Source: Candidatus Woesearchaeota archaeon (GTDB taxonomy: Archaea > Nanobdellota > Nanobdellia > SCGC-AAA011-G17 > JAFCDX01). From it: a stretch of 64,000 nucleotides of DNA. The DNA lies in contig JAFCDX010000002.1 in NCBI GenBank assembly GCA_017609465.1, positions 11,881 through 75,880 of the forward strand, read 5' to 3'. Below the pieces are notes generated by a model that saw only the letters and a list, made by a program, of their open reading frames with translations, had not been told where the DNA came from and searched no databases. Shown here one piece after another: positions 2,235 through 25,420 of the stretch (positions are counted from its first letter, which is position 1; each line of letters starts with the position of its first letter). Both the position numbers and the translations under genes were made by a program.

Positions 2235-3800
2235 TTATTTGAATTTATATATTGCCAATAATGGTTGATTGTTTTGTGAATATACTTGTACTGGTTCTAG
2301 TAATTCAGGATGTCTTTGTGGATATGTATAAGCCCATTCTGGTGTAAATACTGGTTCAAATACATGAACAATATAATAGTCTGGATTTATATTTTCTATT
2401 TTTTCTTCAAATTGTTGTTCTGTTTTTGTTTGACATTCTTCTGTGGCTTTTAATTTTCCATATAAATCTATACAATCTTTTGGAGGTTTATTGTAAAATC
2501 CATAAGTATAACCTTCAGAATAATAAGCTATTTGGACAACAGAAGCAGTTATTATTTTTGGATCTTCTCTTGGAAAATTCTCTTTTATCCATAATCCAGC
2601 TAATTTTTCTTCCCCATAAGTATCCTTTTTCATGTTTATTAATTTATGAGAATGTACAATATGTTGATAACCTCCACCCAATATTAATAATGTAATAGCT
2701 AAAATAGCAATTTCCTTATTGTATCTTTTTAGTAGATTATAAATAAATAGGATTCCCTTTGATGATATATAAAATAAAGGTGGCATTAGCATTAATAACC
2801 ATCTATCATTTGCAGCTCTTATAACAAAAATATAAAAGAATAAAGTTAAAAATCCCCACAATAAAACAAAGAAATCAGAATTTAATTTCTTTTCTTTTTG
2901 TTTTAAGAACATATCAAATCCAAATATTATATTTGAAAATGTAATTAATCCAATTAACAAAGTTGCAAACCATATTGATTCCATGAGAGAAGGAATCATA
3001 AATGTTATGTTTTTTAATGCAGATAAAATAGGAGTTTTTAATGATACTGCACTGCTTCCAAAATACATTTTGAATGCGGTTAATATTCCAGCCCCAATTA
3101 TCTGAACAATTAATAAATAAACAAATAATAGAAATGCACCTATACCCATTGATTTTAGAAAAGTTTTATCTTTTAACAATTTAAATTTTTTAACTACAAG
3201 TAAATAAATTGGGTAAGATATTGGAACAAGAGCTAATGGAAATCTTGCTGAAAACCCTAAGACTCCAAAAAATATTGCATAATAAAGACCTTTCTTTTCA
3301 TTTCTTGTTATATATCTAGACCAAAAGAAGTATATTGATAATAAACCTAGAAACATAGCAGGAACATCAGTTAATAATCTATAAGTATAAAACATGTGAA
3401 CCCAATACACAGACAACATAAATCCTGAAATTAATCCTATTTTTTTATCATATATATCTCTTCCTATAGCATATACTAAATAAACTGAAGCTACTGAAGG
3501 AAGTAATAATGTGAAGAATCTTATCACAATCTCAGGCATATTTAATAAAAAGAAAAAAGCCCATAATAATGGCATTAGCATAGGTCTTATTCCTGTAAAA
3601 TGTGCCCACCATTCCTGATTTTGCCATCCATGTAAAAGACCTTTAGCTACAGAAAGATAATCTCCTTCATCCCACCAAATTGGCTGTTCTCCAACCTTAA
3701 AGAAATAATATAATCTAAACAATATAGCAAATGCTACTAATGCAGTTAAAAGCTGATTTTCATAACTTTTAAGAAACTCTTTTATCCTCTCTTTGTCCAT
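2235..3800 (-). CDS. GT-C fold membrane glycosyltransferase (ArnT/PMT, GT39/GT83-like)
   Basis: About 11 predicted TM helices. First external loop carries WWDEGDY (the acidic DE motif of ArnT/PMT-type enzymes). C-terminal soluble domain of about 130 aa. Confidence 0.7.
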   Translation of the reverse strand: MDKERIKEFLKSYENQLLTALVAFAILFRLYYFFKVGEQPIWWDEGDYLSVAKGLLHGWQNQEWWAHFTGIRPMLMPLLWAFFFLLNMPEIVIRFFTLLLPSVASVYLVYAIGRDIYDKKIGLISGFMLSVYWVHMFYTYRLLTDVPAMFLGLLSIYFFWSRYITRNEKKGLYYAIFFGVLGFSARFPLALVPISYPIYLLVVKKFKLLKDKTFLKSMGIGAFLLFVYLLIVQIIGAGILTAFKMYFGSSAVSLKTPILSALKNITFMIPSLMESIWFATLLIGLITFSNIIFGFDMFLKQKEKKLNSDFFVLLWGFLTLFFYIFVIRAANDRWLLMLMPPLFYISSKGILFIYNLLKRYNKEIAILAITLLILGGGYQHIVHSHKLINMKKDTYGEEKLAGLWIKENFPREDPKIITASVVQIAYYSEGYTYGFYNKPPKDCIDLYGKLKATEECQTKTEQQFEEKIENINPDYYIVHVFEPVFTPEWAYTYPQRHPELLEPVQVYSQNNQPLLAIYKFK

Positions 3801-3851
3801 ATTATAGCTCTTTTAAATAATTATTTAAATCTTTACCTTTTTCAATTCACA

Positions 3852-5339
3852 ATGGAAAATACCAAAATATTATTCATAAATCCTCCAATTAGAGGAAGTA
3901 TAAATTCGGGTTTGGATAATTTGAAAGTCCCTTTAGGATTAGCTTATATTGCCTCTTTTTTGAGAAAATATGGGTTTAAGAATGTTAAAATATTGGATGC
4001 AAAAGCAGAAGGCATTGTTAGAAAAATAGATGAAGACATTGCTCACTATGGTATGACATACAAAAAATTAAAGGAATATGTCAAAGATTACAGGCCTGAT
4101 ATTGTGGGAATTCATTGTGCATATACTGTGTATGAAAAAGATGTTCTAAAAGTGACTGAAATAATAAAATCAATTGATAAAAACATTCTTGTTGTTGTTG
4201 GAGGGGCACACGTTTCAGCAAGTCCTGAATCAATATTAAAATCAGAAAATGTTGACATTGCAGTAAAAGGAGAAGGAGAAGTTACTTTTTATGAGATAGC
4301 AAAAAGATATTCAGAAAATGGAAATTTAAAAAACATAGATGGGACTGTAACAAGAGAAAAAGAGAAGATTATTCATAATAATCATAGAAAATTGATAAAA
4401 AATTTAGATGATATTCCATTTCCAGCGAGAGATTTGTTAGACATGGAGAAATATATCAATCACCCCCTTAATCATATTGGGACAATGAGAAAACCTGCAA
4501 CAGATGTAATAACATCAAGAGGTTGTCCCTTTAATTGTGTTTTTTGCTCAATACATACAATATGGGGCAAGAATTGGAGAGGGAGAAGCGCAAAAAATGT
4601 GGTTGATGAAATTGAATTTTTGATGAATGAATATGGGATAAGACAAATAAGATTCCAGGATGATAATATATCCTTAGATAAAAAAAGAATGCATGAGATA
4701 TGCGATGAAATAATTAACAGAAATTTGAATATAAAGTGGGATACCCCCAATGGGATTGCAATATGGACTATGGATGAAGAATTATTGAAAAAAATGAAAA
4801 AATCCGGTTATTATAGATTAGCACCAAGCATAGAATCTGGAAGCCAAGATACAATACAATTTATAAAAAAACCAATAGATTATGAACATGTCCAAAATAT
4901 ATTAAAATCTGCCAATAAAGTTGGATTATGGACTGTTTCTCCTTTTATTATAGGGTTTCCTTATGAGACCATGGTTGATATAAGAAAGACAATCGATTAT
5001 GCAAAGAATTCAGATCTTGATTTTGCTATATTTTACATAGCTCAGCCTTATGCAGGGACTCCTTTGTATGATATTTATAATAGAGAAGGACTTTTAAATG
5101 AAGGTGTTAAACATTCTAGCTCTGTAATGGAAACAAGATATGGGACAAAATATTTTAGTGCAAAGGACCTGGATAATTTAAGAAAGCAAGCTTATAAGGA
5201 GTTTTATATTTCAAGGTTCAAGAGATATATTAATCCAATCAATACTTATTACTTATTTAAGAAGATAGGAAATATTGAGGGTCTTTCACATACAATAAAA
5301 ATGTTTAAGACTGTTATTGGTTTAGGTTACCATAAATAA
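3852..5339 (+). CDS. Cobalamin-binding (class B) radical SAM enzyme, paralog 1
   Basis: N-terminal Rossmann-like B12-binding region (ILFINPP..., VVGGAHVSA) followed by the radical SAM cluster motif SRGCPFNCVFCS (CxxxCxxC). Confidence 0.85.
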   Translation: MENTKILFINPPIRGSINSGLDNLKVPLGLAYIASFLRKYGFKNVKILDAKAEGIVRKIDEDIAHYGMTYKKLKEYVKDYRPDIVGIHCAYTVYEKDVLKVTEIIKSIDKNILVVVGGAHVSASPESILKSENVDIAVKGEGEVTFYEIAKRYSENGNLKNIDGTVTREKEKIIHNNHRKLIKNLDDIPFPARDLLDMEKYINHPLNHIGTMRKPATDVITSRGCPFNCVFCSIHTIWGKNWRGRSAKNVVDEIEFLMNEYGIRQIRFQDDNISLDKKRMHEICDEIINRNLNIKWDTPNGIAIWTMDEELLKKMKKSGYYRLAPSIESGSQDTIQFIKKPIDYEHVQNILKSANKVGLWTVSPFIIGFPYETMVDIRKTIDYAKNSDLDFAIFYIAQPYAGTPLYDIYNREGLLNEGVKHSSSVMETRYGTKYFSAKDLDNLRKQAYKEFYISRFKRYINPINTYYLFKKIGNIEGLSHTIKMFKTVIGLGYHK

Positions 5340-6200
5340 CTATTTTGTGCTTTCAATCCTTACCCATGTTTTTTCAAAACTTAACTTTCTTATTTTTAAA
5401 TCAATAAATATTTTTATCCATAAATATAATCTTAAAAATATTAAGAAAGGTGCCCATAAAAATTCCTTTATGTTCTTTGGATATATTATTACTTCAAATA
5501 TTCCTGAAGCTTCTTGTCCAAAAGACCTCATAACTTTCTTACCAAACAATTTTCTTAATTGCTCGTATCCTCCTGTAGAACGTCTTTTTTGTTTTATCCA
5601 GTCCTTCAAATTATCAGGATATTTCACATATACTATTGAATTTTCGGAATATTTTATTTCATATCCTTTGTCATGAATTATCTTAGAGATATATGCATCA
5701 TCAGACAATATATTCCCGGGCATTTTTTCTATCTTGTTTCTTATTGCATACAAATATCCTGAACAAACTATGAATTTATTCTCTGAAACTAGTTTTTTTC
5801 TTAACTTGTCGGCCATATGTGTTAAGAAATGTGAGAAATATCCAAAGAAATTGTTTCTCTCATTTAACGGAACTGGGTGTCCTGAAACAGCACCCACATT
5901 TTTATCTTCAAAATATTTGATTAAACTTTTCAATGAATCTTTTTCTATAAATACGTCCCCGTCGGTTAAAATTAGAATATCTCCTTTTGCTTTTTCAAAT
6001 GCAATATTAAGTGCTGTTGGCTTTCCTTTTCCAGGATCTTTTATTGTTTTTACTTTGTATTTCTTTGCTTCATTCAATGTATCTCTGTCAGGAGCAATCA
6101 CAATTATTTCAGAATCTTTTAAATCCTGATTTAATATAGAATTTATTGTCTTTCCTATTGTTTTCTCTTCCCTGAATGCGGTTATTATTATTGATATCAT
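5340..6200 (-). CDS. Glycosyltransferase family 2
   Basis: ISIIITAFREEKTIGKTINSILNQ, ILTDGDV (DxD), C-terminal TM segment. Last gene of the minus-strand operon. Confidence 0.8.
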   Translation of the reverse strand: MISIIITAFREEKTIGKTINSILNQDLKDSEIIVIAPDRDTLNEAKKYKVKTIKDPGKGKPTALNIAFEKAKGDILILTDGDVFIEKDSLKSLIKYFEDKNVGAVSGHPVPLNERNNFFGYFSHFLTHMADKLRKKLVSENKFIVCSGYLYAIRNKIEKMPGNILSDDAYISKIIHDKGYEIKYSENSIVYVKYPDNLKDWIKQKRRSTGGYEQLRKLFGKKVMRSFGQEASGIFEVIIYPKNIKEFLWAPFLIFLRLYLWIKIFIDLKIRKLSFEKTWVRIESTK

Positions 6201-6934
6201 TTTTTTCCTATGAATATTAAGGCGTATCCAAAATAATTATCCAAAAAGGACTTTGTTTTCAAAAATCTGTCTTTTGGAGTTTTTCTGAATAATACTTGAA
6301 TTATCTTTTTGTATAAAAAATGATATATTGAATTTATGAAAGAAGATCCAATTATTTTTCTTTTCTCAAAATCTTTGGTTAAATTAAATATTTCTTTTCG
6401 AGAATAAGGAATCTCAAGACCGTATTTCCATTTGTTAAACAATTCTGCTAACTTTTTATATATCATATAAGGATAGCATCTTTTGTTTGGAACACTTATT
6501 ATTGCTATTCCTTTCTTTTTTAATAAATTATAATGTATATCCCATATTTCTTTTCTTTTTTTGCCTTCGAAATGCTCTGCAAGCCCGAAAGAAATAACTA
6601 TATCATATTTCTTTTTTTTATCCAATTCAAATAAATTTTTATTAATTAATTTTGGATTTATCTTAAATTTTGAATAAAGAATTTTTGCCTCTTTTATGGC
6701 TTCTTTTGATTCATCCACTAAAGTAATATTTGATTCATTAATTCCAAATAACAAGCTTGTTGTTCCTCTTCCAGATCCCAATTCTATCACATCTAATTTT
6801 TCGTAATTCTTAAAATGTTTTTTTAATTCCTTGTTTAATTTTTTCCATACTAGTGACTCGCTTAATTTTTGAATTTCTTCATAATCCTTGTCAAACTTAG
6901 TCTCTTTCCAGTATTTATCCCAAACCGTAGGCAT
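6197..6934 (-). CDS. Class I SAM-dependent methyltransferase
   Basis: VIELGSGRGTTS motif I, DIVISFGLAEHF motif. 4-nt overlap with the downstream GT2. Confidence 0.75.
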   Translation of the reverse strand: MPTVWDKYWKETKFDKDYEEIQKLSESLVWKKLNKELKKHFKNYEKLDVIELGSGRGTTSLLFGINESNITLVDESKEAIKEAKILYSKFKINPKLINKNLFELDKKKKYDIVISFGLAEHFEGKKRKEIWDIHYNLLKKKGIAIISVPNKRCYPYMIYKKLAELFNKWKYGLEIPYSRKEIFNLTKDFEKRKIIGSSFINSIYHFLYKKIIQVLFRKTPKDRFLKTKSFLDNYFGYALIFIGKK

Positions 6935-7955
6935 TTTTAATATCCTTTATTAATTTACTCCATTTGTATTCTTTTGATGTTTCAAGAGCATTTTTCCTTA
7001 TATCATTCAAGTCATTTCTCATTGCAAAATTTACTTTTTCTTTAAGGTCATTAACATCCTTAAAAATAAAACCATTAACATTGTCATTTATTATTTCTTT
7101 TATTCCAATTATATCAGAGCCGATTACTATTTTTTTTAATGACATTGCTTCTATTAAAGATTGTGGCATCCCTTCTCTTTTTGAAGGCAAGATAAATATC
7201 TTACAATTGTTGTAAATATCTATCTTTTTCTTTAAATCATAAACAGGTTTTTCCACTTTATGTTTTAATTTTTTATTATAGTTTCCTTCTATAGGTCCAA
7301 CTAATTTTACATTCTCTAATTCATTTAAAATTTCTAAATTTTTTATTGGAGATATCCTTCCAAGATATAATATCCCAGAGCCTCTTTTATTTCTCGCTTT
7401 GAAGAATTCATCAGGAATCCCGTTTGGTATATATGTGATATTATTAGCTTTTAATTTTTTTAATATAGAAATTTCCCATTTTGTTATTGCTATTACTTTG
7501 TCATATTTTTTAAGACTATATCTTCCTAATGTTAAATCATATAATCTTACTATTGATTCTAATATTGTTGAACGAATTCCTTTTTCTAAAAATGGGGCAT
7601 GAGTTGTTAACAAACAAGGTATTCTTAATTTTTTAGCATATTTTAATACAAGATAAGAATGAGGATGCCTGTAAACATGTGTATCAATAATATCTGGTTT
7701 TATTTCAAATAATTTTTTCTTAAAATTAAAATATTTTGCATTATTGGATATTTTAAATTTTATTGGAAATCTATGTATATGAATTCCATCCAAATTTTCA
7801 TATTCTGAAGAGGTTTCTTTAGTACCTTTTATCTCATTGCTTGAGAAAATGTGTATCTCATATTTGTCCTTTAATCTCTTAGCTATTTCATATACACGAT
7901 TCCATACTCCACATATACTTGGGTATGAATAAGGACATATTAATGCTATTTTCAT
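6915..7955 (-). CDS. Glycosyltransferase family 4 (GT-B fold)
   Basis: C-terminal EX7E-type motif REGMPQSLIEAMSLKKIVIGSD; N-terminal KIALICPYSYPS. Confidence 0.8.
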   Translation of the reverse strand: MKIALICPYSYPSICGVWNRVYEIAKRLKDKYEIHIFSSNEIKGTKETSSEYENLDGIHIHRFPIKFKISNNAKYFNFKKKLFEIKPDIIDTHVYRHPHSYLVLKYAKKLRIPCLLTTHAPFLEKGIRSTILESIVRLYDLTLGRYSLKKYDKVIAITKWEISILKKLKANNITYIPNGIPDEFFKARNKRGSGILYLGRISPIKNLEILNELENVKLVGPIEGNYNKKLKHKVEKPVYDLKKKIDIYNNCKIFILPSKREGMPQSLIEAMSLKKIVIGSDIIGIKEIINDNVNGFIFKDVNDLKEKVNFAMRNDLNDIRKNALETSKEYKWSKLIKDIKNAYGLG

Positions 7956-7978
7956 AGGGAAGAAAACACAATTGTAAC

Positions 7979-8455: not shown

Positions 8456-8486
8456 TTTAGAAAAATTGTATTTAAAAACATATTGT

Positions 8487-11266: not shown

Positions 11267-12693
11267 TCAACTATTTTATAGTTTTCAAATTCTTTTGTTA
11301 TTTCACTCCAGTTTGTATCTTCATTTTCTATGTATCTTGCTGCTTTTATGCCCATGTCAATGCAGTGGTCCATATTATTATAATTGAATAATCCTTGTCT
11401 TCCATTAGTTATTAAATTTTTAATATTGCTTAGATATTCAAGAATAACATTTAAATTTTTTTTGAAATTCAAGTCATATACAGGATATGTTTTATCCATT
11501 TTTATTAAAAAATAACTTTCAACATCATTTCTTGTCAATATTCCTGTTTTTTCAAGATCTATTATTGCTTTTTCAAATAGTTCCTTGTCATCAAGATTCA
11601 TTAAATATCCGTCTTCTTCTGCGCTTATTTCCACAGTAAGAACCGTCTTGTCTCCCGGAACATTTTGAACACTAAATCCTTTTTGCTCAGAAATCCTATT
11701 AAAAATAATATCCTTTTCAGGAAAAAATATCCAATTATCCAGAAATAATCTTTTTTTATTGATAATAATATAAAGTAATATTAAAGATCTGTATTCCAGT
11801 TTTTTAGCTGCTTTTTTAACATCATTTGGAGCATTCATTAATTTTGGCAATTCATTAATAGGTATTGTGGATACAACAAAATCAGATTTTATTTTTTTCT
11901 CTTTACTTTTTTCTTTGTATCTTATTTCCTCTATGAAATTGTCCTTTACTTTTATGTTTTTTATATTTGAGTTTAAGTGAAGTTTTCCTTTATTTATCTC
12001 CGCTTCCTCCCACATTCTTTCAGCAAGGGTAGATATCCCGTATTTGGGGTAATAGAATACATCGGCACTTATTTCTGGATTTGATTTCTTAAATATCATG
12101 CTTTTTATTAGTGTTGAAAGATTTGGTATTGAAACACGAGTTTTTGCAAGTTCGTAAGAAAGTTTTTTTGGATCTCCCCATACTTTCTCTGCATAAGGTT
12201 CAAAAATTAATTTATACATCGCATGTCCAAATCTATTGGAGATATAATCTTCATATGTTTTTTCCTTCTTGTAGAAAATATTTCTTATCTTTCTGAACAT
12301 GAAAGACATTCCTATCTTGAATGTAAGTAAGGGATTTAGCTTTAATATCAATTCTATGAAAGAAACAGGATAATTGAAGAATTTTTTCTTAAGATATATT
12401 CTTGATCTTTTTGGAATTTCTAGAAGGTTGTCTTTTCCAACAAGCTCTTCTATCTCTTTTTGTATGTAAGGTATTTGAGTATATATCTTATGAGGCCCAT
12501 AATCAAGAGTGTATTCATCATGTTTAAAAGAACCTGATATTCCACCTAGATAATCATTCTTTTCTATAACTTCTACTTTATTGTTTTCAGATAATTTCCA
12601 TGCGCTACTTAATCCTGTAAGGCCAGCTCCAAGAATAGCTATTTTTCTCATAGAATTATCTAGAATATATTGTTTAAAAGTCTTTTTAATCAC
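11263..12693 (-). CDS. FAD/NAD(P)-dependent oxidoreductase (amine-oxidase / UDP-galactopyranose-mutase-like fold)
   Basis: Dinucleotide-binding KIAILGAGLTGLSSAW...VIEKNDYLGG...YGPHKIY at the N-terminus. Confidence 0.7.
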   Translation of the reverse strand: MIKKTFKQYILDNSMRKIAILGAGLTGLSSAWKLSENNKVEVIEKNDYLGGISGSFKHDEYTLDYGPHKIYTQIPYIQKEIEELVGKDNLLEIPKRSRIYLKKKFFNYPVSFIELILKLNPLLTFKIGMSFMFRKIRNIFYKKEKTYEDYISNRFGHAMYKLIFEPYAEKVWGDPKKLSYELAKTRVSIPNLSTLIKSMIFKKSNPEISADVFYYPKYGISTLAERMWEEAEINKGKLHLNSNIKNIKVKDNFIEEIRYKEKSKEKKIKSDFVVSTIPINELPKLMNAPNDVKKAAKKLEYRSLILLYIIINKKRLFLDNWIFFPEKDIIFNRISEQKGFSVQNVPGDKTVLTVEISAEEDGYLMNLDDKELFEKAIIDLEKTGILTRNDVESYFLIKMDKTYPVYDLNFKKNLNVILEYLSNIKNLITNGRQGLFNYNNMDHCIDMGIKAARYIENEDTNWSEITKEFENYKIVD

Positions 12694-12720
12694 AGAATAA
12701 TATATTTTTTAGGATATATT

Positions 12721-13614
12721 TTATTTCTTTTTTGCTATTACTAAAGTTTGACCCAACCAATAAGGTATTAGAAAATTATTAAGATGTAATGTATTTACAA
12801 TTTTATTCCCTAGCCTATACAGGAATTTATTGTATGCTTTCATCCTATACACAAGATACCATAGACTTAGAGACTGGAAATGTTTTTTCATCTTTATTAC
12901 TTCAAAACCTGTTTTTTCAAGCATTTTTCTTATTGTTTTTTTGTCAAAATAATACAGATGAACACTTAGCAAGAATATCCATCTTTTTCCCATTAATCTT
13001 GATACTAAACTTCCTATGTCTGGATAATTTACAACCAATAAACCCTCTTGTTTTAACAACTTATTTGATTCTTCAAGTGTTTTTTTTGGATCTGTCACAT
13101 GTTCAAGAACATCCCATAATGTTACAACATCAAAGCTTTCTTTTTTAAAATCATTATCAAAAATTGTGCCTTGTTTTATATTAATGCCATAATTCTTTTT
13201 TCCCCATTCACATAACCATTTATTTGGCTCAACACCATGAACTTCCCAGCCTTTGTCCTTTGCCACTTTTAAAAAAGACCCTCCTGCTGTTCCAATATCG
13301 AGTATATTTCCTTTACTAGAGTATTTTTCAATTTTTTTAAGTGCCTTGCTAAATGTTAATTCACGCCCTCTTACCTGTGACACAAATAATTCATCAGAAC
13401 CTTCTGAATAAGCATTGACTATTTCATCATCCATGAGTCTTGGATTTACATATTTTAATCCACAATTTTTGCATTGAACTATTTGGTCATTTCCTATTGT
13501 ATTGCTTGAAGAGGCATATCTCTTTTTCAAATCAGTCCCTTCCTCATCCTTAAGACCTTTATGAATTATTTTATATTCAGAACTTCCACACAAATTACAA
13601 TTCACATATTCCAT
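12721..13614 (-). CDS. Class I SAM methyltransferase with N-terminal zinc ribbon
   Basis: CNLCGS...CKNCG zinc ribbon, ILDIGTAGGSF motif I, DVVTLWDVLEHV. Confidence 0.8.
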   Translation of the reverse strand: MEYVNCNLCGSSEYKIIHKGLKDEEGTDLKKRYASSSNTIGNDQIVQCKNCGLKYVNPRLMDDEIVNAYSEGSDELFVSQVRGRELTFSKALKKIEKYSSKGNILDIGTAGGSFLKVAKDKGWEVHGVEPNKWLCEWGKKNYGINIKQGTIFDNDFKKESFDVVTLWDVLEHVTDPKKTLEESNKLLKQEGLLVVNYPDIGSLVSRLMGKRWIFLLSVHLYYFDKKTIRKMLEKTGFEVIKMKKHFQSLSLWYLVYRMKAYNKFLYRLGNKIVNTLHLNNFLIPYWLGQTLVIAKKK

Positions 13615-13615
13615 T

Positions 13616-14317
13616 TTAATCTTTAAATTTGTATTTTAACAATGTCCAAACAGCTTCAAAACCATCCCTGAATTTTATTTTTTTACCTTCCTTTAATGTT
13701 CTTGGATTGTATTTTATTGGGACTTCATAAATTTTATGTCCTTTTTTTCTGACTTTTGCTGTAACTTCAGGACAAAACTCAAATCTTTCACATTTTAAAT
13801 TTATGTTTTTTATAATATCTGTTTTAAAAACTTTATAGCAGGTTGGTTCGTCTGTTATTTTTGCGTTGTATAAGATATTTGCTAAAATAGTCAATATTTT
13901 TCCGCCGTAATAATATTCATAATAAGCTTTAGTATGCTTTGATTTCATGTTTTTTATGAGATTTCCTTTTATTCTTGAGCCATAAACTACATTTGCTTTT
14001 CCTTCTTCTATTGGTTTTACTAATTCATAATAATCATTTGGATCATATTCCAAATCAGCGTCTTGTACTATTACAATATCTCCTGTTGCATGTTCAATTC
14101 CAGACCTTATTGCTTTTCCTTTCCCATAATTCTTTTCGTGGTATACTTTTTTAACATCAGGGTGTTGTAAATCCTTCAGCCATTCTCTTGAACCATCCTT
14201 AGAACCATCATCAACAATTATTATTTCTTTTTCAAGATTAACTTTATCAACTCTATTGAATAATTCTTGAATATTGTTTATTTCATTATATAATGGGATT
14301 ATAACAGATATTTTCAT
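13616..14317 (-). CDS. GT2 polyprenyl-phosphate sugar synthase-like (DPM1/ArnC/GtrB-like)
   Basis: ISVIIPLYNE, IIVDDGSKDGS, VQDADLEYDP. Short soluble form, typical of dolichyl/undecaprenyl-phosphate glycosyltransferases. Confidence 0.8.
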   Translation of the reverse strand: MKISVIIPLYNEINNIQELFNRVDKVNLEKEIIIVDDGSKDGSREWLKDLQHPDVKKVYHEKNYGKGKAIRSGIEHATGDIVIVQDADLEYDPNDYYELVKPIEEGKANVVYGSRIKGNLIKNMKSKHTKAYYEYYYGGKILTILANILYNAKITDEPTCYKVFKTDIIKNINLKCERFEFCPEVTAKVRKKGHKIYEVPIKYNPRTLKEGKKIKFRDGFEAVWTLLKYKFKD

Positions 14318-14348
14318 TTTATTTCATTGTTTGATTATATTTATAAAA

Positions 14349-15752
14349 TTACCTAAACATGGTTATTATACCTGCTTTTACCATATTATATATGTTTTTT
14401 GGAGGCAATTTTCTCAATTTCCACACTCTTTTAGACATATATTTTGGTCTTAAATAGAATCTTCTGTATGCCTTTTTTACAGTATCTTTTATTTCTTCCA
14501 CAGATCTTCCTTCTGGAACATATACAATCTCGTCCCATGTTGTGAAATTATCCCAATCATCCTTTAATATTTTACCTTCTTTTTTGCATATTTTGTGCAA
14601 TTCTGTTCCTGGAAAGGGTGTACAGATTGGAAATTGCACATAATCTAAGTCAATATCTATTGCTTGTTGTATTGTTTTTTCAGAATCTTCCTTTGTTTCT
14701 GTTGGCAATGCAAGAATAAATGAACCCCAAGTTTCTATTCCCACTTTCTTGCATAAATCAACAGCCTTTTTCTGTTGCTCCAATGTAATGTCTTTTTTTA
14801 TTAAATTTAGCAATCTTTGTACTCCAGATTCTAATCCAAAAAATATCAAATAACATCCAGCATCTTTCATTTTTTTAAGAAGCTCTTCATCAACTAAATT
14901 AACTCTTGTAAAACAAGACCATTCAATATCAAATTTTTGATTAATCATTTCATCACATAATTCAATTATTCTTTTCTTATTTGCTGTAAATGTTTCATCA
15001 TAGAATTGTATACTATCTGCATTGTATTTTGTTATTAATTCTTTTATTTCTTTTATTATGTTTTCTGTACTATTATACCTGTGTGTCTTTCCAAAGGTTA
15101 AATGTCCTGAACAATATGCGCATCTAAAAGGACAACCTCTTGATGTTATTATGTTTAATGTTTTCTTTCCTCTTAGATTAGCAGAAGAATGATATTTTTC
15201 CATTGGAAATAAATGTCTTGCAGGTTTTGGGAGAATGCTAATATCTTTTATCAATTCTTGTGGCTTGTTTATTATAATCCCTTCATTATTTTTCCATGCT
15301 AAACCATCAACTTCTTTGAAGTCTTTATTTTTTTCAATTGCTCCAAGAAGATTGTTAAAAGTTATTTCTCCTTCACCATAAATAACATAGTCAATGTTCT
15401 CATTTTCAAGGCATTTTTTAGGTTCAAGAGTTGCATGCGCCCCTCCTAAAATAACCTTTATATTATTATCAAAATTTTTTGCTATTTCAGCTATTTTATA
15501 ACACCTATTCATATTTGTGCAAAAAGTCTGCATTCCAATAATCTCTGGATGAAATTCCTTTATTATTTTTTTAATATCATCAAAATTATAATTCATTGCC
15601 TCAGAATCCACAACTTTTACTTCATGGTCTTTTGACTCTGACATTGCAGCAACATAAGCAAGTCCCAATGAAGGGTGCAAAGTACCTATATCCTTTAATT
15701 TTCCATATCTCTCCTTCTGGCTTGTTGGTGGTTCTATAAATAAAACTTTCAT
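14349..15752 (-). CDS. Cobalamin-binding (class B) radical SAM enzyme, paralog 4
   Basis: KVLFIEPP..., LGGAHATL, SRGCPFRCAYCS. 4-nt overlap with the upstream GT-C gene. Confidence 0.85.
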   Translation of the reverse strand: MKVLFIEPPTSQKERYGKLKDIGTLHPSLGLAYVAAMSESKDHEVKVVDSEAMNYNFDDIKKIIKEFHPEIIGMQTFCTNMNRCYKIAEIAKNFDNNIKVILGGAHATLEPKKCLENENIDYVIYGEGEITFNNLLGAIEKNKDFKEVDGLAWKNNEGIIINKPQELIKDISILPKPARHLFPMEKYHSSANLRGKKTLNIITSRGCPFRCAYCSGHLTFGKTHRYNSTENIIKEIKELITKYNADSIQFYDETFTANKKRIIELCDEMINQKFDIEWSCFTRVNLVDEELLKKMKDAGCYLIFFGLESGVQRLLNLIKKDITLEQQKKAVDLCKKVGIETWGSFILALPTETKEDSEKTIQQAIDIDLDYVQFPICTPFPGTELHKICKKEGKILKDDWDNFTTWDEIVYVPEGRSVEEIKDTVKKAYRRFYLRPKYMSKRVWKLRKLPPKNIYNMVKAGIITMFR

Positions 15753-17530
15753 TTTTCTTTATATAATAAATATATTAGATAGAAAGGAGTCAAGATACTT
15801 ATAAGTATTGCGAACCAAAGAATTATATGACCTACAAAATCCAAAATATTGTCAAATATTCCTTTTGGGTCATAATCATCATAAGCTTCTCTTTGATATC
15901 TTAATGGATAATAGAACCAATCGTGAGTGCTTTGTATATATTCATATATTCCTTGTTTAACTACTGTTTGTGTCTTATATACTCTAAGATAGGGAACTCC
16001 TGTTATTTCATCATAACCTCCCCCACCCTTAAAGGTTTCAATTAATTGTGTATTTTGTTTAAATAAATTTGTTATCTGTTCTGAAGATTGGTTAAGAGGC
16101 CCTTGGGTTATTGTTCCCCAACCACAATCATCTCTAGCACATTCTATATAATAAAGATTGGTCGATAGGTCCATCCCCCCAAAATTATTTAAGACTTCAT
16201 TATATTGATTTAGGTAAGCGGATTCTAGATAATATTTATCATTAAATATCCATGCTATTCTTCCCCTATATAATCTTGAATCCACAATCACAACATCATT
16301 CTCTCCTATGTTATTAATTGCATACTCTCTCATCTTTATATTAGCGCTTGTAGAAGTAAGATGGCTTATTAAGGGGCTCCCAATTGGGATAAAAAAGATA
16401 TTTGCTATCAATATAATCCCCAAAATTATTGGCAATATATTTTTTTGCTTGTCCTTAAATTTCTTTTCTATTTTAATTATAGCACTTGATGCAAAAATGC
16501 TTAAGAATGGTATGAAGCTTACGTAATGTGTTTGCAGTAAAGCAGAACCTGTTAATAATAAGAATCCTACAATTATTGTTATCAATATTATTCTCTTATA
16601 AATATACTTTTTCTCTTTTAATGCCCATGTTATTCCCAATAAAGATAATAAAAATATTATTGGATCTAATGTTAAAAATCCTGTTTTTATCATTTCAAAT
16701 GCACCTAAAAATACATTCACAAAAGAAAAAGGTTCATCAAAACCAAGTTGTCCTGCATAAATTTCCCTATTTATATCAAAAAATTTAGCAAATATAACAT
16801 CAACAACTCCCTTGTATTTATACAATAAGAAATTGTAAATCAATAAAGGGGAATAAATCAAGAATATAATTGATGTAAATGTTATTCCCTCTTTCCAATC
16901 TTTTTTTGTTAATAACTCTTTTTTGTTTTCAATTTTTTTATATTTGTGATAGAAATAGGCTACTCCAAAACCAACTACAAAAAATAATGCTATCGATTTG
17001 ATTAATGTAGCAACACCTAAAAATATTGCAGCTTCATATGATAATTTATCTTTTTTTAGACCTTTAATGAAAAATAATGTTGCTAATAATACAAAAAATA
17101 CCATTGATAAATCCATTTCTATTAATGTGTATCTTATACTATATGCGGAGATTGTTACTAAAAATGCCGATATTATCCCTGTTTTTTTATTATACAATTC
17201 TTTTCCAAGCAAATATGTTGCTGGTATTATTAAAATTCCAAAAAAGAAACTTAAAAATCTTGCTGAAAATGCAGTTACTCCAAATATTTTATATGCAATG
17301 TCTGTAAGATAAAACCAAAGCACTGATTGTTGCATTATTCCTATTTTGTTCGTTCCAAGAAAATTTATTGCATGCGGTCCATGAACCATTTCATCTCCAA
17401 GAAAAGAAATATTATTTACTAGAAGATATCTTAAAATTCCCCCTAAAATTATTAATAAAATTAAATATTTTCTATAATCATTTGAAAATACAAAATCAAC
17501 TATTTTATCAGAAATTTTCTTATTTTCCAT
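15749..17530 (-). CDS. GT-C fold membrane glycosyltransferase (ArnT/PMT-like), second copy
   Basis: Multi-TM protein. First loop has FLGDEMVHGP (acidic DE motif). C-terminal extracytoplasmic domain plus a final TM helix. First gene of the minus-strand operon. Confidence 0.7.
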   Translation of the reverse strand: MENKKISDKIVDFVFSNDYRKYLILLIILGGILRYLLVNNISFLGDEMVHGPHAINFLGTNKIGIMQQSVLWFYLTDIAYKIFGVTAFSARFLSFFFGILIIPATYLLGKELYNKKTGIISAFLVTISAYSIRYTLIEMDLSMVFFVLLATLFFIKGLKKDKLSYEAAIFLGVATLIKSIALFFVVGFGVAYFYHKYKKIENKKELLTKKDWKEGITFTSIIFLIYSPLLIYNFLLYKYKGVVDVIFAKFFDINREIYAGQLGFDEPFSFVNVFLGAFEMIKTGFLTLDPIIFLLSLLGITWALKEKKYIYKRIILITIIVGFLLLTGSALLQTHYVSFIPFLSIFASSAIIKIEKKFKDKQKNILPIILGIILIANIFFIPIGSPLISHLTSTSANIKMREYAINNIGENDVVIVDSRLYRGRIAWIFNDKYYLESAYLNQYNEVLNNFGGMDLSTNLYYIECARDDCGWGTITQGPLNQSSEQITNLFKQNTQLIETFKGGGGYDEITGVPYLRVYKTQTVVKQGIYEYIQSTHDWFYYPLRYQREAYDDYDPKGIFDNILDFVGHIILWFAILISILTPFYLIYLLYKEK

Positions 17531-18733: not shown

Positions 18734-18734
18734 A

Positions 18735-20449: not shown

Positions 20450-20450
20450 T

Positions 20451-20858: not shown

Positions 20859-20896
20859 TTTGATTTTTGTATATATTTTATATATAAACTTTTTTG

Positions 20897-22533: not shown

Positions 22534-22610
22534 TTTTTATTATGCTTTGAACTAATTTGTTACTTCTCTATAGTTAAGTATAGGATAAACTTATAAATAT
22601 TTACATTTTG

Positions 22611-24116: not shown

Positions 24117-24162
24117 TTTCTTCTAAAAAATATACTTATTTAAAATACTTATGTATTTATCC

Positions 24163-25400: not shown

Positions 25401-25420
25401 TTATCCAGAACCATCACATC

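What the first reader, a model, noticed from the sequence alone, without database searches (positions are those of the whole stretch)
2235..17530. Four paralogous cobalamin-type radical SAM enzymes wired into a GT / methyltransferase / flavoenzyme operon: candidate undescribed envelope-tailoring system
Seen in sequence:
- Four full-length proteins (3852-5339, 8487-9884, 9881-11266, 14349-15752) share one architecture: an N-terminal B12-binding Rossmann domain with GG(A/V/P)H, then SRGCxxxCxxC.
- Three of them sit in an 11-gene, 12.2-kb minus-strand operon (17530 down to 5340). Its gaps are 31 nt or less and several junctions are ATGA overlaps.
- The operon interleaves them with a GT-C transferase, a DPM1/ArnC-like GT2, a Zn-ribbon methyltransferase, an FAD oxidoreductase, a YkgJ Cys-cluster protein, a GT4, another methyltransferase and another GT2.
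- The fourth rSAM and a second GT-C flank the operon.

Class B rSAM enzymes characteristically methylate or rearrange unactivated carbons (Fom3, GenK, TokK, HpnP/HpnR, Mmp10). Radical SAM enzymes more broadly also remodel archaeal lipids (for example the GDGT ring synthases).

Four copies in one locus of a reduced, probably cobalamin-auxotrophic genome is a striking investment. It points to multi-step radical C-methylation or C-C chemistry on a sugar, a polyprenyl carrier, or scavenged host lipid. I know of no characterised pathway with this gene set.
Basis: partly seen in the sequence, partly recalled or inferred. Interest (0 to 1): 0.85.

Follow-up and report, generated by a model that had tools for sequence, protein, structure and literature searches.

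The report
Radical-SAM sugar-tailoring cassette in a DPANN archaeon
A small symbiotic-type archaeon carries a conserved but uncharacterised gene cassette that probably builds an unusual, radical-chemistry-modified sugar on a lipid carrier and attaches it to the cell surface; it is a good lead, but multi-copy clusters like it turn out to be common rather than exceptional.

Summary
Four diverged paralogs (32-37% identity) have a B12-binding domain, a radical-SAM domain and CxxxCxxC. Three of them lie in a tightly packed 11-gene minus-strand operon. That operon sits in a ~32-kb surface-glycan island of a 28%-GC Nanoarchaeota-type archaeon.

None of the four is an ortholog of a characterised enzyme; all NCBIfam equivalog cut-offs are missed by more than 2-fold.

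The neighbourhood is conserved. rSAM-B, -C and -D each have their own ortholog (67-74% identity) in the same order in another Nanoarchaeia genome. GT-C -> rSAM-D -> DPM1-like GT2 recurs in 7 independent archaeal places. A Zn-ribbon methyltransferase and the flavoprotein travel with it into Pacearchaeota, Micrarchaeota and a bacterial-looking locus. One homolog is an rSAM-D::methyltransferase fusion.

The "FAD oxidoreductase" is a UDP-galactopyranose-mutase-like enzyme by sequence, conserved residues and fold.

Best reading: a portable Gtr/Arn-like module makes a (furanose?) sugar on dolichyl phosphate, tailors it with radical SAM enzymes and methyltransferases, and transfers it outside with the GT-C.

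Two points weaken the finding. "Four copies is striking" does not hold: 21 of 80 sampled class-B rSAM loci carry three or more copies. The chemistry, the substrate and cobalamin auxotrophy remain untested.

The parts
15749..17530 (-). GT-C1: polytopic GT-C (PMT/ArnT-like) glycosyltransferase, the predicted extracytoplasmic transferase that uses a polyprenyl-phosphate-sugar donor
   Evidence: It hits PMT_2 at 50.8 bits and PMT at 48.3 bits, both above cut-off. It has ~10-11 TM segments plus a ~170-aa loop domain. D46-E47 is invariant in alignment A4. Orthologs at 39-60% identity lie directly upstream of rSAM-D in L001, L003, L086, L087, L088 and L117. No solved homologue was found by sequence or by profile.
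14349..15752 (-). rSAM-D: class-B-type radical SAM enzyme, translationally coupled to GT-C1 by an ATGA overlap
   Evidence: It has Pfam B12-binding and Radical_SAM domains. The best NCBIfam hit is HpnJ at 247 bits against a cut-off of 578. The AF2 model has pLDDT 92.4. Foldseek returns MgmA, AprD4, TsrM, OxsB, CysS and TokK at TM 0.65-0.74. More than 120 clusters are at least 49% identical, mostly from DPANN. P0086 is a fusion with a methyltransferase.
13616..14317 (-). GT2a: DPM1/AglJ/ArnC-like polyprenyl-phosphate glycosyltransferase, soluble catalytic domain of 233 aa with a DAD motif
   Evidence: It hits Glycos_transf_2 at 128 bits. NCBIfam lists AglJ, ArnC, PgfS, PpgS and Dol-P-hexose transferase, all below cut-off. 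The best PDB match is P. furiosus Dol-P-Man synthase 5mlz (2.5e-22, residues 1-222), followed by ArnC and GtrB. Orthologs at 47-78% identity lie directly downstream of rSAM-D in 8 loci.
12721..13614 (-). MTa: class I SAM methyltransferase with an N-terminal four-Cys Zn ribbon
   Evidence: It hits Methyltransf_23 at 95 bits. The Zn ribbon is C6xxC9...C48xxC51. Orthologs occur in L001 (74%), L146 (52%) and L149 Micrarchaeota (47%), each beside the flavoprotein. In P0086 the methyltransferase is fused to rSAM-D.
11263..12693 (-). UGM-like flavoenzyme, eukaryotic-type UDP-galactopyranose-mutase fold, predicted to be a sugar pyranose/furanose mutase or a variant of one
   Evidence: It hits Amino_oxidase, NAD_binding_8 and GLF. 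The best PDB sequence matches are T. cruzi and A. fumigatus UGM over the full length. Family invariants are DxGPHK, YxxKxW, FNR333, Y403-P and GRxG..Y438. The AF2 model has pLDDT 89.3. The Foldseek top 34 hits are all UGM, at TM 0.80-0.83 and E ~1e-32; protoporphyrinogen oxidase follows at 1e-27.
9881..11266 (-). rSAM-C: class-B-type radical SAM enzyme; the real start is probably the ATG at 11257
   Evidence: It has Pfam B12-binding and Radical_SAM domains. The best NCBIfam hit is the Sden_1168 P-methyltransferase family at 216 bits against a cut-off of 575. Orthologs occur in L001 (67%) and L088 (60%). It is absent from L003 and L143.
8487..9884 (-). rSAM-B: class-B-type radical SAM enzyme, joined to rSAM-C by an ATGA overlap
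   Evidence: It has the same Pfam domains. The best NCBIfam hit is HpnJ at 210 bits against a cut-off of 578. Orthologs occur in L001 (74%), L143 (53%), L003 (49%) and L088 (49%). A Planctomycetota ortholog (50%) sits as a bare GT2+rSAM pair. The family is large and DPANN-centred.
7979..8455 (-). Small Cys-rich protein (CxxxCxxxCC plus 5 more Cys), an accessory and possible Fe-S/Zn protein
   Evidence: PF03692 scores 22.0 bits, just below the cut-off of 23. There is no NCBIfam hit. tblastn found no homolog in any related locus.
6915..7955 (-). GT4 glycosyltransferase
   Evidence: It hits Glyco_transf_4 and Glycos_transf_1. There is a weak hit to Agl16. The L001 ortholog is 42% identical and in the same position.
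6197..6934 (-). MTb: second class I SAM methyltransferase
   Evidence: It hits Methyltransf_23, _31 and _25.
5340..6200 (-). GT2b: PgaC/IcaA-like GT2 with one C-terminal TM segment; last gene of the operon
   Evidence: Pfam GT2 families. The best NCBIfam hit is PgaC_IcaA at 75 bits. It is not DPMS-like in the PDB search. The L001 ortholog is 64% identical.
3852..5339 (+). rSAM-A: fourth class-B-type radical SAM enzyme, a separate plus-strand unit between GT-C2 and GT2b
   Evidence: It has Pfam B12-binding and Radical_SAM domains. The best NCBIfam hit is Sden_1168 at 238 bits against a cut-off of 575. It is only ~35% identical to the Fom3-like rSAMs beside PEP mutase in L001 and L003. The best relatives are 45-46% identical, in Bathyarchaeota loci.
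2235..3800 (-). GT-C2: second GT-C (PMT_2) transferase, divergent from rSAM-A
   Evidence: It hits PMT_2 at 48 bits. It has ~10-12 TM segments. It shares the D-E loop motif with GT-C1 and is 24% identical to it.
17627..32149 (.). Rest of the surface-glycan island: GMD, DegT aminotransferase, TylC3-type C-methyltransferase, WbuC cupin, Wzx flippase, GT4, two NodU-like carbamoyltransferases, GDSL esterase, methyltransferase and GT2
   Evidence: GMD passes its equivalog cut-off at 453 bits against 415.

Best explanation
The operon is a portable surface-glycosylation module. It follows the Gtr/Arn/AglJ-AglS 'lipid-carrier' logic, with radical-SAM tailoring enzymes built in.

**Proposed sequence of events**
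1. The UGM-like flavoenzyme converts a common nucleotide hexose to its furanose form, or performs a related flavin-iminium ring isomerisation.
2. The DPM1-like GT2a loads the sugar onto dolichyl (polyprenyl) phosphate at the cytoplasmic face.
3. The class-B-type radical SAM enzymes D and B, and C where present, modify unactivated carbons of that monosaccharide together with the Zn-ribbon methyltransferase MTa. C-methylation is most likely; a rearrangement is less likely.
4. The lipid-linked product is flipped.
5. GT-C1 transfers the tailored sugar on the outer face to an S-layer/surface protein or to the Wzx-exported glycan encoded in the same 32-kb island.
6. GT4, MTb and GT2b extend or decorate the same glycan.

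**Shown**
- The domain and fold assignments.
- The absence of orthology to characterised enzymes.
- Tight operon packing.
- Conserved co-linearity across genomes.
- The rSAM-D::methyltransferase fusion.

**Inferred**
- The identity of the sugar.
- That the rSAMs act at the lipid-linked stage.
- The order of the steps.
- Methylation as the chemistry.
- Cobalamin use.
- The acceptor.
For: **Synteny**
- L001 (Nanoarchaeia, GCA_028716945.1) has GT-C 60%, rSAM-D 70%, GT2a 78%, MTa 74%, flavoprotein 53%, rSAM-C 67%, rSAM-B 74%, GT4 42% and GT2b 64% in the same order.
- L003 has GT-C, rSAM-D, GT2a, a methyltransferase, rSAM-B and the flavoprotein.
- L088 has GT-C, rSAM-D, GT2a, rSAM-B, rSAM-C and the flavoprotein.
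- L143 (Pacearchaeota) has the same core.
- L086, L087, L089, L090, L091 and L117 keep GT-C and/or GT2a beside rSAM-D.
- L146 has rSAM-D, a GT2, MTa (52%) and the flavoprotein.
- L149 (Micrarchaeota) has GT-C, MTa (47%), the flavoprotein (45%), an rSAM and a second GT-C.
- L056 (an unrelated archaeon) repeats GT-C - class-B rSAM - DPM1-like GT2 with a different rSAM paralog.
- A DPM1-like GT2 lies directly beside a class-B rSAM in 8 of 80 sampled GTDB loci from several bacterial phyla. It also occurs as a bare pair in a Planctomycetota MAG.

**Fusion and coupling**
- The rSAM-D::methyltransferase fusion P0086 ties MTa and rSAM-D to one substrate or complex.
- GT-C1 and rSAM-D overlap by ATGA.

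**Component identities**
- GT2a's closest solved relatives are all polyprenyl-phosphate glycosyltransferases: Dol-P-Man synthase, ArnC and GtrB.
- GT-C enzymes use polyprenyl-phosphate sugars as donors (established knowledge of the GT-C fold class).
- The flavoprotein is UGM-like by sequence, invariant residues and fold.

**Context and precedents**
- The accessory cassettes around the core differ between genomes. They are GDP-perosamine-type here, phosphonate in L001 and L003, and heptose-like in L143. This is what one expects of a self-contained side-branch module.
- Class-B-type rSAMs are already known or proposed to act on lipid-linked monosaccharides. MoeK5 is cited in PMC11214058; HpnJ and Cds are covered in PMC13459092.
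Against: - No experiment and no characterised ortholog exists for any of the tailoring enzymes.
- The fold does not separate methylases from OxsB-type or AprD4-type chemistry.
- AprD4 shows that this architecture can work without cobalamin.
- No GtrA-type flippase was found in the operon.
- The flavoprotein has Glu at the position of A. fumigatus UGM R182, so it may not be a canonical UDP-Galp mutase.
- GT-C1 has no solved homologue detectable by sequence.
- Bacterial rSAM-D orthologs (50% identity; L005, L144, L145) sit with a sulfatase/LtaS-family protein and a different GT2 rather than with an adjacent GT-C. They lack the flavoprotein and MTa. The partnership is therefore not universal.
- rSAM-A is not part of the conserved cassette.
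Confidence: 0.45

Rival explanations
1. The purpose is the same (an unusual surface sugar), but the radical SAM enzymes act on the soluble nucleotide sugar before GT2a, or on the finished glycan, rather than on the lipid-linked monosaccharide.
For: Characterised class-B sugar and phosphonate methylases use soluble substrates. GenK and GenD1 act on aminoglycosides, and Fom3 acts on CMP-activated hydroxyethylphosphonate (general knowledge; listed in PMC12931638). None of the four rSAMs has a predicted TM segment. The UGM-like enzyme is expected to act on a nucleotide sugar.
Against: rSAM-D sits between GT-C1 and GT2a in every archaeal ortholog locus and overlaps GT-C1. This is the placement expected for a step between lipid loading and transfer. 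The recurring bare GT2+rSAM pairs suggest that the GT2 product is the rSAM substrate. Gene order is only circumstantial evidence.
Confidence: 0.2
2. This is HpnI/HpnJ- or Cds-like head-group chemistry. GT2a glycosylates a lipid, either dolichyl phosphate or scavenged archaeol/GDGT. One or more rSAMs then contract the hexose ring to a carbocyclic cyclitol (calditol-like), remodelling the membrane lipids of a lipid-scavenging DPANN cell.
For: HpnJ is the top NCBIfam model for rSAM-B and rSAM-D and aligns over the full length. A GT2 next to a B12-type rSAM mirrors hpnI-hpnJ. HpnJ and Cds are proposed to contract lipid-linked hexoses (PMC13459092). OxsB, a ring-contracting class-B enzyme, is among the structural matches.
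Against: The scores are less than half the HpnJ cut-off (247 vs 578), and BchE and ApyD score nearly as well. A cyclitol has no anomeric centre for a GT-C to transfer, yet GT-C is the most constant partner. The surrounding 32 kb is a classic Wzx-type glycan island. A UGM-like mutase and two methyltransferases have no role in this scheme.
Confidence: 0.12
3. The rSAMs modify the isoprenoid chain, either the dolichol carrier or scavenged archaeal lipids, by methylation or cyclisation. This would resemble the class-B enzymes GrsA/GrsB, Gmm and HpnP/HpnR.
For: Known lipid-modifying radical SAM enzymes act almost exclusively on isoprenoids, and several are B12-type (PMC13459092; PMC11214058). GT2a and GT-C both handle polyprenyl phosphates.
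Against: The locus has no lipid-biosynthesis genes. The constant partners are sugar enzymes: the UGM-like protein, GT2, GT-C and GT4. The same cassette occurs in a bacterial-looking Wzy/Bac_transf polysaccharide locus (L146).
Confidence: 0.08
4. The system tailors phosphonates. The rSAMs would be Fom3/PhpK/Sden_1168-like C- or P-methyltransferases that make methylated phosphonate decorations for the glycan.
For: Sden_1168 is the top NCBIfam model for rSAM-A and rSAM-C. L001 and L003, and probably L143, carry a Fom1-like cytidylyltransferase::PEP-mutase, Ppd, Fe-ADH, a Fom3-like rSAM and CDP-OH_P_transf next to the cassette.
Against: tblastn finds no PEP mutase, Ppd, Fe-ADH, cytidylyltransferase or CDP-alcohol phosphatidyltransferase anywhere in the 64-kb window. 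The phosphonate cassettes in L001 and L003 bring their own rSAM, which is only ~35% identical to rSAM-A. The scores are less than half the family cut-offs.
Confidence: 0.05
5. The rSAMs are peptide or protein (RiPP-like or MgmA-like) C-methylases acting on a surface protein. The alternative in this group is that the gene cluster is a chance juxtaposition.
For: MgmA is the closest solved structure. ApyD, a RiPP rSAM, scores ~200 bits.
Against: The operon has no room for a precursor-peptide gene, since every gap is 31 nt or less. It has no protease or exporter. Conserved synteny with sugar enzymes in at least 8 independent loci excludes chance.
Confidence: 0.03

Closest known systems
Three-component lipid-carrier glycosylation systems: GtrA/GtrB/Gtr*, ArnC/ArnT, and archaeal AglJ/AglD with the Dol-P-Man-dependent AglS
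   Same: A DPM1-like GT2 and a GT-C transferase are encoded together. GT2a's nearest solved relatives are Dol-P-Man synthase, ArnC and GtrB. GT-C1 has the PMT/PMT_2 signature and a loop-1 DE pair.
   Different: No GtrA-type flippase gene was found. Between and around the two transferases sit three class-B-type radical SAM enzymes, a UGM-like flavoenzyme and a Zn-ribbon methyltransferase, which none of the described systems has.
Decaprenyl-phospho-ribose to decaprenyl-phospho-arabinofuranose (DprE1/DprE2), feeding the GT-C arabinosyltransferases of mycobacteria
   Same: The logic is shared: a polyprenyl-phosphate furanose is chemically tailored after lipid loading and then used by GT-C enzymes outside the membrane (established knowledge).
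   Different: The tailoring enzymes are unrelated (FAD/PCMH oxidase plus reductase versus radical SAM, methyltransferase and UGM-like). The host here is archaeal. The resemblance is by logic only and was not tested.
HpnI/HpnJ (hopanoid cyclitol ether) and calditol synthase Cds
   Same: A GT2 lies next to a B12-type radical SAM enzyme. The rSAM is proposed to act on a lipid-linked hexose (PMC13459092). HpnJ is the top-scoring NCBIfam model for rSAM-B and rSAM-D.
   Different: The scores are 210-247 bits against a cut-off of 578. There are no hopanoid genes. The constant GT-C partner, the UGM-like enzyme and the methyltransferases do not fit that pathway.
Class-B radical SAM sugar C-methylases of antibiotic pathways (GenK, GenD1, Fms7, MoeK5)
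   Same: The two-domain architecture is the same, and the substrates are sugars. MoeK5 acts on a lipid-phosphoglycerate-linked sugar (cited in PMC11214058; listed in PMC12931638).
   Different: Those are secondary-metabolite enzymes of actinomycetes. In this locus the enzymes are embedded in primary surface-glycan machinery of DPANN archaea.
Eukaryotic-type UDP-galactopyranose mutase (A. fumigatus, T. cruzi)
   Same: The fold matches at TM 0.80-0.83 and fills the top 34 PDB hits. The His-loop His, the R327-equivalent Arg, both C-terminal Tyr residues and the N-x-DH motif are conserved and invariant in the family.
   Different: Identity is only ~20%. The R182-equivalent is Glu. The protein misses the bacterial UGM equivalog cut-off (54.6 vs 304 bits). 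Its substrate is unknown.
MgmA (MCR glutamine C-methylase, PDB 9ccb) and AprD4 (PDB 6fd2)
   Same: These are the closest solved structures to rSAM-D by sequence (1e-29 and 5e-27) and by fold.
   Different: Identity is 21-24%. One is a cobalamin-dependent protein methylase and the other a cobalamin-free aminoglycoside diol dehydratase, so they bracket the possible chemistry rather than define it.

Membership tests
Class B (cobalamin-dependent) radical SAM enzymes | CxxxCxxC radical-SAM cluster motif in a partial TIM barrel | tested here: met
   TSRGCxxxCxxC is invariant in all four proteins. PF04055 scores 80-98 bits.
Class B (cobalamin-dependent) radical SAM enzymes | N-terminal Rossmann-like B12-binding domain | tested here: met
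   PF02310 scores 66-84 bits against a cut-off of 32 in all four proteins. The rSAM-D model superposes on MgmA, TsrM, OxsB, CysS and TokK over ~450 columns.
Class B (cobalamin-dependent) radical SAM enzymes | Actually binds and uses cobalamin | not testable with these tools
   AprD4 has the same architecture, works without cobalamin, and is the second-best structural match. This needs UV-vis or ICP analysis of purified protein.
HpnJ (TIGR03471 equivalog) | Score at or above the curated cut-off of 577.6 bits | tested here: not met
   The four proteins score 190.7, 210.5, 207.8 and 247.2 bits.
BchE, PhpK, Sden_1168, MgmA (TIGR04014), HpnR, BzaD, ApyD, AprD4, KedN5, TsrM-type and ladderane rSAM families | Score at or above the curated cut-off of each family | tested here: not met
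   Every score is below half of its cut-off. Examples: Sden_1168 238 vs 575, BchE 223 vs 481, TIGR04014 162 vs 360.
Cds, GrsA/B, Gmm, Fom3, GenK/GenD1, MoeK5 | Phylogenetic placement inside the characterised clade | not tested
   These sequences were not retrievable with the tools, and no NCBIfam model or PDB entry for them appeared among the hits.
Polyprenyl-phosphate glycosyltransferases (DPM1/GtrB/ArnC-type GT2) | GT-A catalytic domain with a DxD motif, closest to known polyprenyl-P GT2s | tested here: met
   The DAD motif lies at residues 87-89. The top PDB hits are 5mlz DPMS, ArnC and GtrB. The AglJ equivalog cut-off is not reached (106 vs 325), so this is family-level membership only.
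GT-C glycosyltransferases (PMT/ArnT-like) | Polytopic membrane protein with an acidic motif in the first outer loop and a PMT-type profile match | tested here: met
   PMT_2 scores 50.8 and PMT 48.3 bits, both above cut-off. There are ~10-11 TM segments. D46-E47 is invariant. There is no structural confirmation.
UDP-galactopyranose mutase | UGM fold with FAD-binding GxGxxG and the catalytic His-loop, Arg and Tyr constellation | tested here: inconclusive
   The fold and most residues are conserved. The AfUGM R182 position is Glu, and the TIGR00031 cut-off is not met. Activity and substrate are unknown.
Gtr/Arn-type three-component system | Dedicated small flippase (GtrA/ArnE-F type) encoded with the GT2 and GT-C | tested here: not met
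   The operon has no such gene. Only a Wzx/MOP flippase is present, 5 kb away at 22611-24116.
Operon / co-transcribed unit | Same strand, minimal gaps, and conserved order in other genomes | tested here: met
   Every gap is 31 nt or less and there are three ATGA overlaps. The same order occurs in L001. Transcription itself was not tested.

The most novel reading that the evidence does not exclude
Class-B radical SAM enzymes work directly on a dolichyl-phosphate-linked furanose made by a UGM-like mutase and a DPM1-like GT2. They produce a C-alkylated or carbocyclic sugar that a GT-C then places on the surface of DPANN cells. This would be the first radical-SAM tailoring step at the lipid-carrier stage of surface glycosylation. 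It would also make the surface coat of these symbionts depend on cobalamin obtained from the host.
Probability: 0.25. Interest if true: 0.75.

Novelty: new variant of a known kind. Interest (0 to 1): 0.5.

Why it matters
DPANN archaea live attached to host cells, and their surface glycans are almost unstudied. A conserved, portable cassette would define a new sugar-tailoring route if it couples lipid-carrier glycosylation (GT2 plus GT-C) to three uncharacterised radical SAM lineages and a UGM-like enzyme. It would probably also define new monosaccharides.

The cassette would give enzymologists three well-populated, easily modelled class-B families in a clear substrate context. The recurring pair of a DPM1-like GT2 and a class-B rSAM in many bacterial phyla suggests the principle is general.

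If cobalamin is really required, the cassette would be a concrete metabolic dependency of the symbiont on its community.

Tried and rejected
1. A look-up of the window's own rSAM-D by exact sequence found nothing. The source contig was later identified through the flavoprotein: JGI 3300033148, 81.8 kb.
It could not be used for ortholog synteny. I re-used it as an unbiased sample of class-B rSAM contexts.
3. The metagenome scan gave only ~8 true orthologs, mostly on short contigs.
4. Phosphonate hypothesis: the window has no PEP mutase, Ppd, Fe-ADH or cytidylyltransferase.
5. A 'second triad' of GT-C2, rSAM-A and GT2b was rejected because GT2b is PgaC-like. In L001 its ortholog ends the main operon.
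6. The CxxCxxCC protein as a dedicated reductant: it is below the Pfam cut-off and absent from every related locus.
7. GT-C1 against the PDB, by sequence and by a 5-sequence profile, gave no hit.
8. RiPP, BchE and MgmA-type roles: there is no precursor gene, no pigment genes and no MCR context.
9. Six literature searches found no description of this gene set, and a search for PRK07208 found nothing.
10. There is no cobalamin riboswitch or transporter in the window.
11. A tree against Cds, Grs, Gmm, Fom3, GenK and MoeK5 could not be built because those sequences were not obtainable.

Full report
**1. What is there**

The ORF map reproduces the finding exactly. Four proteins carry Pfam B12-binding (PF02310, 66-84 bits) followed by Radical_SAM (PF04055, 80-98 bits):
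- rSAM-A at 3852-5339(+)
- rSAM-B at 8487-9884(-)
- rSAM-C at 9881-11266(-)
- rSAM-D at 14349-15752(-)

All four share GG(A/V/P)H and TSRGCxxxCxxC, and they are 32-37% identical to one another. DUF4070 was not detected.

Three of them lie in an 11-gene minus-strand string from 17530 to 5340. Every gap in it is 31 nt or less. True ATGA overlaps occur at GT-C1/rSAM-D, rSAM-C/rSAM-B and MTb/GT2b. The operon contains, in order:
1. GT-C1 (PMT_2/PMT)
2. rSAM-D
3. GT2a
4. MTa
5. a flavoprotein
6. rSAM-C
7. rSAM-B
8. a small Cys-rich protein
9. GT4
10. MTb
11. GT2b

rSAM-A and a second GT-C (2235-3800) sit next to the operon as separate units.

The operon is part of a ~32-kb surface-glycan island. The island also holds:
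- a bona fide GDP-mannose 4,6-dehydratase
- a DegT aminotransferase
- a TylC3-type C-methyltransferase
- a WbuC cupin
- a Wzx flippase
- two NodU-like carbamoyltransferases
- a GDSL esterase
- further glycosyltransferases

The organism is an archaeon of 25-32% GC. It has a thermosome and aTrm56, and Rfam finds two tRNA matches of 106 and 123 nt, long enough to hold introns. Its closest protein relatives are labelled Nanoarchaeia, Nanoarchaeota, Woesearchaeota or Pacearchaeota. The source is an 81.8-kb contig of JGI metagenome 3300033148.

**2. Are the four enzymes orthologs of something known?**

No. Against NCBIfam the best models are HpnJ, BchE, the Sden_1168 P-methyltransferase family and ApyD. 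They score 190-247 bits, against curated cut-offs of 481-750. MgmA (TIGR04014), PhpK, HpnR, BzaD, AprD4, KedN5, TsrM-type and the ladderane family are all missed as well.

By sequence, the closest solved structures are MgmA (9ccb, 1e-29; identified through PMC11796369) and AprD4 (5e-27).

A high-confidence AF2 model of rSAM-D (pLDDT 92.4) superposes on MgmA, AprD4, TsrM, OxsB, CysS and TokK at TM 0.65-0.74. This is the class-B fold. The matches span methylation, ring contraction and cobalamin-free dehydration, so the fold does not fix the chemistry. Cobalamin binding itself remains an inference.

**3. Is the neighbourhood conserved?**

Yes, strongly.

| Locus | Lineage | What is conserved |
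|---|---|---|
| L001 | Nanoarchaeia, GCA_028716945.1, 536-kb contig | GT-C 60%, rSAM-D 70%, GT2a 78%, MTa 74%, flavoprotein 53%, rSAM-C 67%, rSAM-B 74%, GT4 42%, GT2b 64%, all in the same order |
| L003 | Nanoarchaeota | GT-C, rSAM-D, GT2a, a methyltransferase, rSAM-B and the flavoprotein |
| L143 | Pacearchaeota | GT-C, rSAM-D, GT2a, a methyltransferase, rSAM-B and the flavoprotein |
| L088 | metagenome | GT-C, rSAM-D, GT2a, rSAM-B, rSAM-C and the flavoprotein |
| L086, L087, L089, L090, L091, L117 | metagenome (short contigs) | GT-C and/or GT2a beside rSAM-D |
| L146 | carries Bac_transf and Wzy-TPR genes | rSAM-D 59%, a GT2, MTa 52% and the flavoprotein |
| L149 | Micrarchaeota | GT-C, MTa 47%, flavoprotein 45%, an rSAM and a second GT-C |
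| P0086 | metagenome | natural rSAM-D::methyltransferase fusion, next to the flavoprotein and another rSAM |

Because rSAM-B, -C and -D each have their own ortholog in L001, they are three old orthogroups that travel together and not a recent local expansion.

There is also soft evidence. The 'longest contig' lengths repeat across the three independent homolog lists. For example, 535886 and 14464 occur in all three. 21271, 117172, 162043, 27718, 12314, 11922 and 7727 occur in the D and B lists. 18044, 39138, 10711, 12772, 6988, 12446 and 18543 occur in the B and flavoprotein lists. This suggests many more co-located sets.

Bacterial rSAM-D orthologs at 50% identity (L005, L144, L145) show a different arrangement: rSAM-D, a second rSAM, a sulfatase/LtaS-family protein and a GT2. 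In L144 and L145 a PMT_2 gene lies nearby; these loci have no flavoprotein or MTa.

**4. Re-identification of the partners**

*GT2a.* It is a 233-aa soluble GT-A domain with a DAD motif. Its closest solved relatives are all polyprenyl-phosphate glycosyltransferases: P. furiosus Dol-P-Man synthase at 2.5e-22 across the whole domain, then ArnC and GtrB.

*GT-C1.* It has ~10-11 TM segments, a ~170-aa loop domain and an invariant loop-1 Asp-Glu pair. No solved homologue was detectable.

*The 'FAD oxidoreductase'.* It is UGM-like on four lines of evidence:
- The best PDB sequence hits are T. cruzi and A. fumigatus UDP-galactopyranose mutases over the full length.
- The alignment conserves the His-loop His, the FYR Arg (AfUGM R327), the YP Tyr, and the GRxG..Y and N-x-DH motif. 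The RPYNFKVW Arg (AfUGM R182) is Glu. The residue names are recalled from the literature, and they match the mutant names in the PDB titles.
- These positions are invariant across 26 family members.
- The AF2 model (pLDDT 89.3) has UGMs as its top 34 PDB matches, at TM 0.80-0.83 and E ~1e-32. Protoporphyrinogen oxidases and phytoene desaturases are five or more orders of magnitude weaker.

*MTa.* It has the predicted four-Cys Zn ribbon.

*The small Cys-rich protein.* It scores just below Pfam's cut-off for PF03692 and is not conserved elsewhere.

*GT2b.* It is PgaC-like, not DPM1-like.

**5. How unusual is it?**

Less than claimed. I used the 80 GTDB loci that were retrieved only because they contain one class-B rSAM. 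In these, 21 have three or more copies within about +/-10 kb, 6 have four or more, and two have seven.

The exhaustive search finds 65,084 clusters (at 50% identity) related to rSAM-D at E <= 1e-3. These include 2,000-2,600-aa proteins with 3-5 separate class-B rSAM matched stretches. The rSAM-D clade proper collapses to about three representatives, followed by a continuum at ~40% identity.

What does recur is a DPM1-like GT2 placed directly against a class-B rSAM:
- 8 of the 80 sampled loci, from PVC, Omnitrophota, Nealsonbacteria, Scalindua, FCPU426 and Syntrophales
- a bare pair in a Planctomycetota MAG
- a second GT-C / rSAM / DPM1-like GT2 string with a different rSAM paralog in an unrelated archaeon (L056)

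**6. Most likely mechanism**

The constant partners point to a Gtr/Arn/AglJ-AglS-type lipid-carrier module with built-in radical tailoring. These partners are a polyprenyl-phosphate GT2, a GT-C that must use a polyprenyl-phosphate sugar donor, a sugar ring mutase, a methyltransferase that can be fused to rSAM-D, and two or three class-B rSAMs.

The proposed steps are:
1. A nucleotide hexose is isomerised by the UGM-like enzyme.
2. GT2a loads it onto dolichyl phosphate.
3. rSAM-D/B(/C) and MTa modify it.
4. It is flipped.
5. GT-C1 transfers it to a surface protein or to the Wzx-exported glycan of the island.
6. GT4, MTb and GT2b act on the same glycan.

Only the family and fold assignments, the synteny and the fusion are shown. 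The substrate stage, the order, methylation as the chemistry, cobalamin use and the acceptor are inferred.

The flanking accessory cassettes vary between genomes. They are GDP-perosamine-type here, Fom1/2/C/3-like phosphonate genes in L001 and L003, and heptose-like genes in L143. This variation fits a self-contained side-branch module.

There are precedents for class-B-type rSAMs on lipid-linked monosaccharides: MoeK5 (cited in PMC11214058), and HpnJ and Cds (PMC13459092). The DprE1/E2-DPA-GT-C pathway is a precedent for tailoring a polyprenyl-phosphate furanose before GT-C transfer (general knowledge).

**7. Rivals**

- *Action on soluble nucleotide sugars.* This has the same biological purpose and cannot be excluded.
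- *HpnJ/Cds-like ring contraction to a cyclitol lipid head group.* It fits the top HMM names and the GT2+rSAM pairing. It does not fit the constant GT-C partner, the mutase or the methyltransferases.
- *Isoprenoid-tail modification (Grs/Gmm/HpnP-like).* Nothing in the locus supports it beyond the enzyme class.
- *Phosphonate tailoring.* It is real in related loci, where the cassette brings its own rSAM. The window has no PEP-mutase pathway.
- *RiPP or protein methylation, and chance juxtaposition.* Operon packing and synteny argue against both.

**8. Verdict**

No paper describing this gene set was found.

I class it as a new variant of known kinds, namely lipid-carrier glycosylation plus class-B rSAM tailoring. 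Interest is moderate at 0.5. It is a well-defined and experimentally tractable lead, and it is one among very many uncharacterised radical SAM contexts.

Noticed in passing
window 32210-32962 (+): An S-methyl-5'-thioadenosine phosphorylase passes its equivalog cut-off (TIGR01694, 309 vs 275 bits) and sits at the edge of the glycan island. It could clear MTA and 5'-deoxyadenosine, by-products that inhibit radical SAM enzymes.
   Followed up: partly
L001 1459-7853; L003 18558-21404; L143 20943-21395: Related DPANN loci carry a fosfomycin-like early phosphonate cassette right next to the GT-C/rSAM cassette. It comprises a Fom1-like cytidylyltransferase::PEP-mutase fusion, phosphonopyruvate decarboxylase, Fe-ADH, a Fom3-like class-B rSAM and CDP-OH_P_transf. 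This implies phosphonate-decorated surface glycans or lipids in Nanoarchaeota. The cassette is absent from this window.
   Followed up: partly
protein P0086 (L142 10001-12391): This is a natural fusion of an rSAM-D ortholog (54% identity) with a Methyltransf_23-type methyltransferase, 796 aa long. It lies next to the UGM-like flavoprotein in a Wzy/GT4/MurJ cluster.
   Followed up: partly
protein P0066: An rSAM-D homolog is interrupted by an intein (Pfam PF07591 and PF14890) and is 592 aa long.
   Followed up: no
proteins P0368, P0388, P0417, P0472: These are giant proteins of 2,100-2,600 aa with 3-5 separate class-B radical SAM matches, meaning several rSAM modules are fused in tandem.
   Followed up: no
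L008 (bacterium MAG E14) and L054: Both loci hold seven class-B rSAM paralogs in a row. In L008 a GT2 overlaps the first rSAM and another GT2 lies inside the array.
   Followed up: partly
window 54718-54823 (+) and 61467-61589 (-): Rfam finds two tRNA matches of 106 and 123 nt, long enough to hold introns, that ARAGORN missed. The first overlaps the GTG start assigned to the PIG-L ORF at 54794, so that gene probably starts further downstream.
   Followed up: no
window 17627-22533: A conventional nucleotide-sugar branch sits beside the rSAM operon. It comprises GDP-mannose 4,6-dehydratase, a DegT/PseC-like aminotransferase, a TylC3-type C-methyltransferase (PF08421/PF08484) and a WbuC cupin. 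The island therefore has two independent routes to C-methylated sugars.
   Followed up: partly
window 25859-27604 (+) and 29511-31247 (-): Two NodU/CmcH-like O-carbamoyltransferases flank a GDSL esterase and a short methyltransferase. This suggests carbamoylated and acetylated glycan.
   Followed up: no
window 39603-45329 (+): A thermosome is followed by an HSP20-GrpE-DnaK-DnaJ block in an archaeon, that is, a bacterial-type Hsp70 system.
   Followed up: no
window 54794-56627 (+): A PIG-L/BshB-like de-N-acetylase is immediately followed by a GT4, an arrangement like BshA/BshB or GlcNAc-lipid processing.
   Followed up: no
L005, L144, L145 (bacterial CSSED10-type MAGs): The bacterial rSAM-D orthologs (50% identity) sit in a different conserved set: rSAM-D, a second rSAM, a sulfatase/LtaS-family membrane enzyme and a GT2, beside saccharopine-dehydrogenase-like and AlaDH-like genes. 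A lipid-phosphate-head-group transferase may replace the GT-C there.
   Followed up: partly
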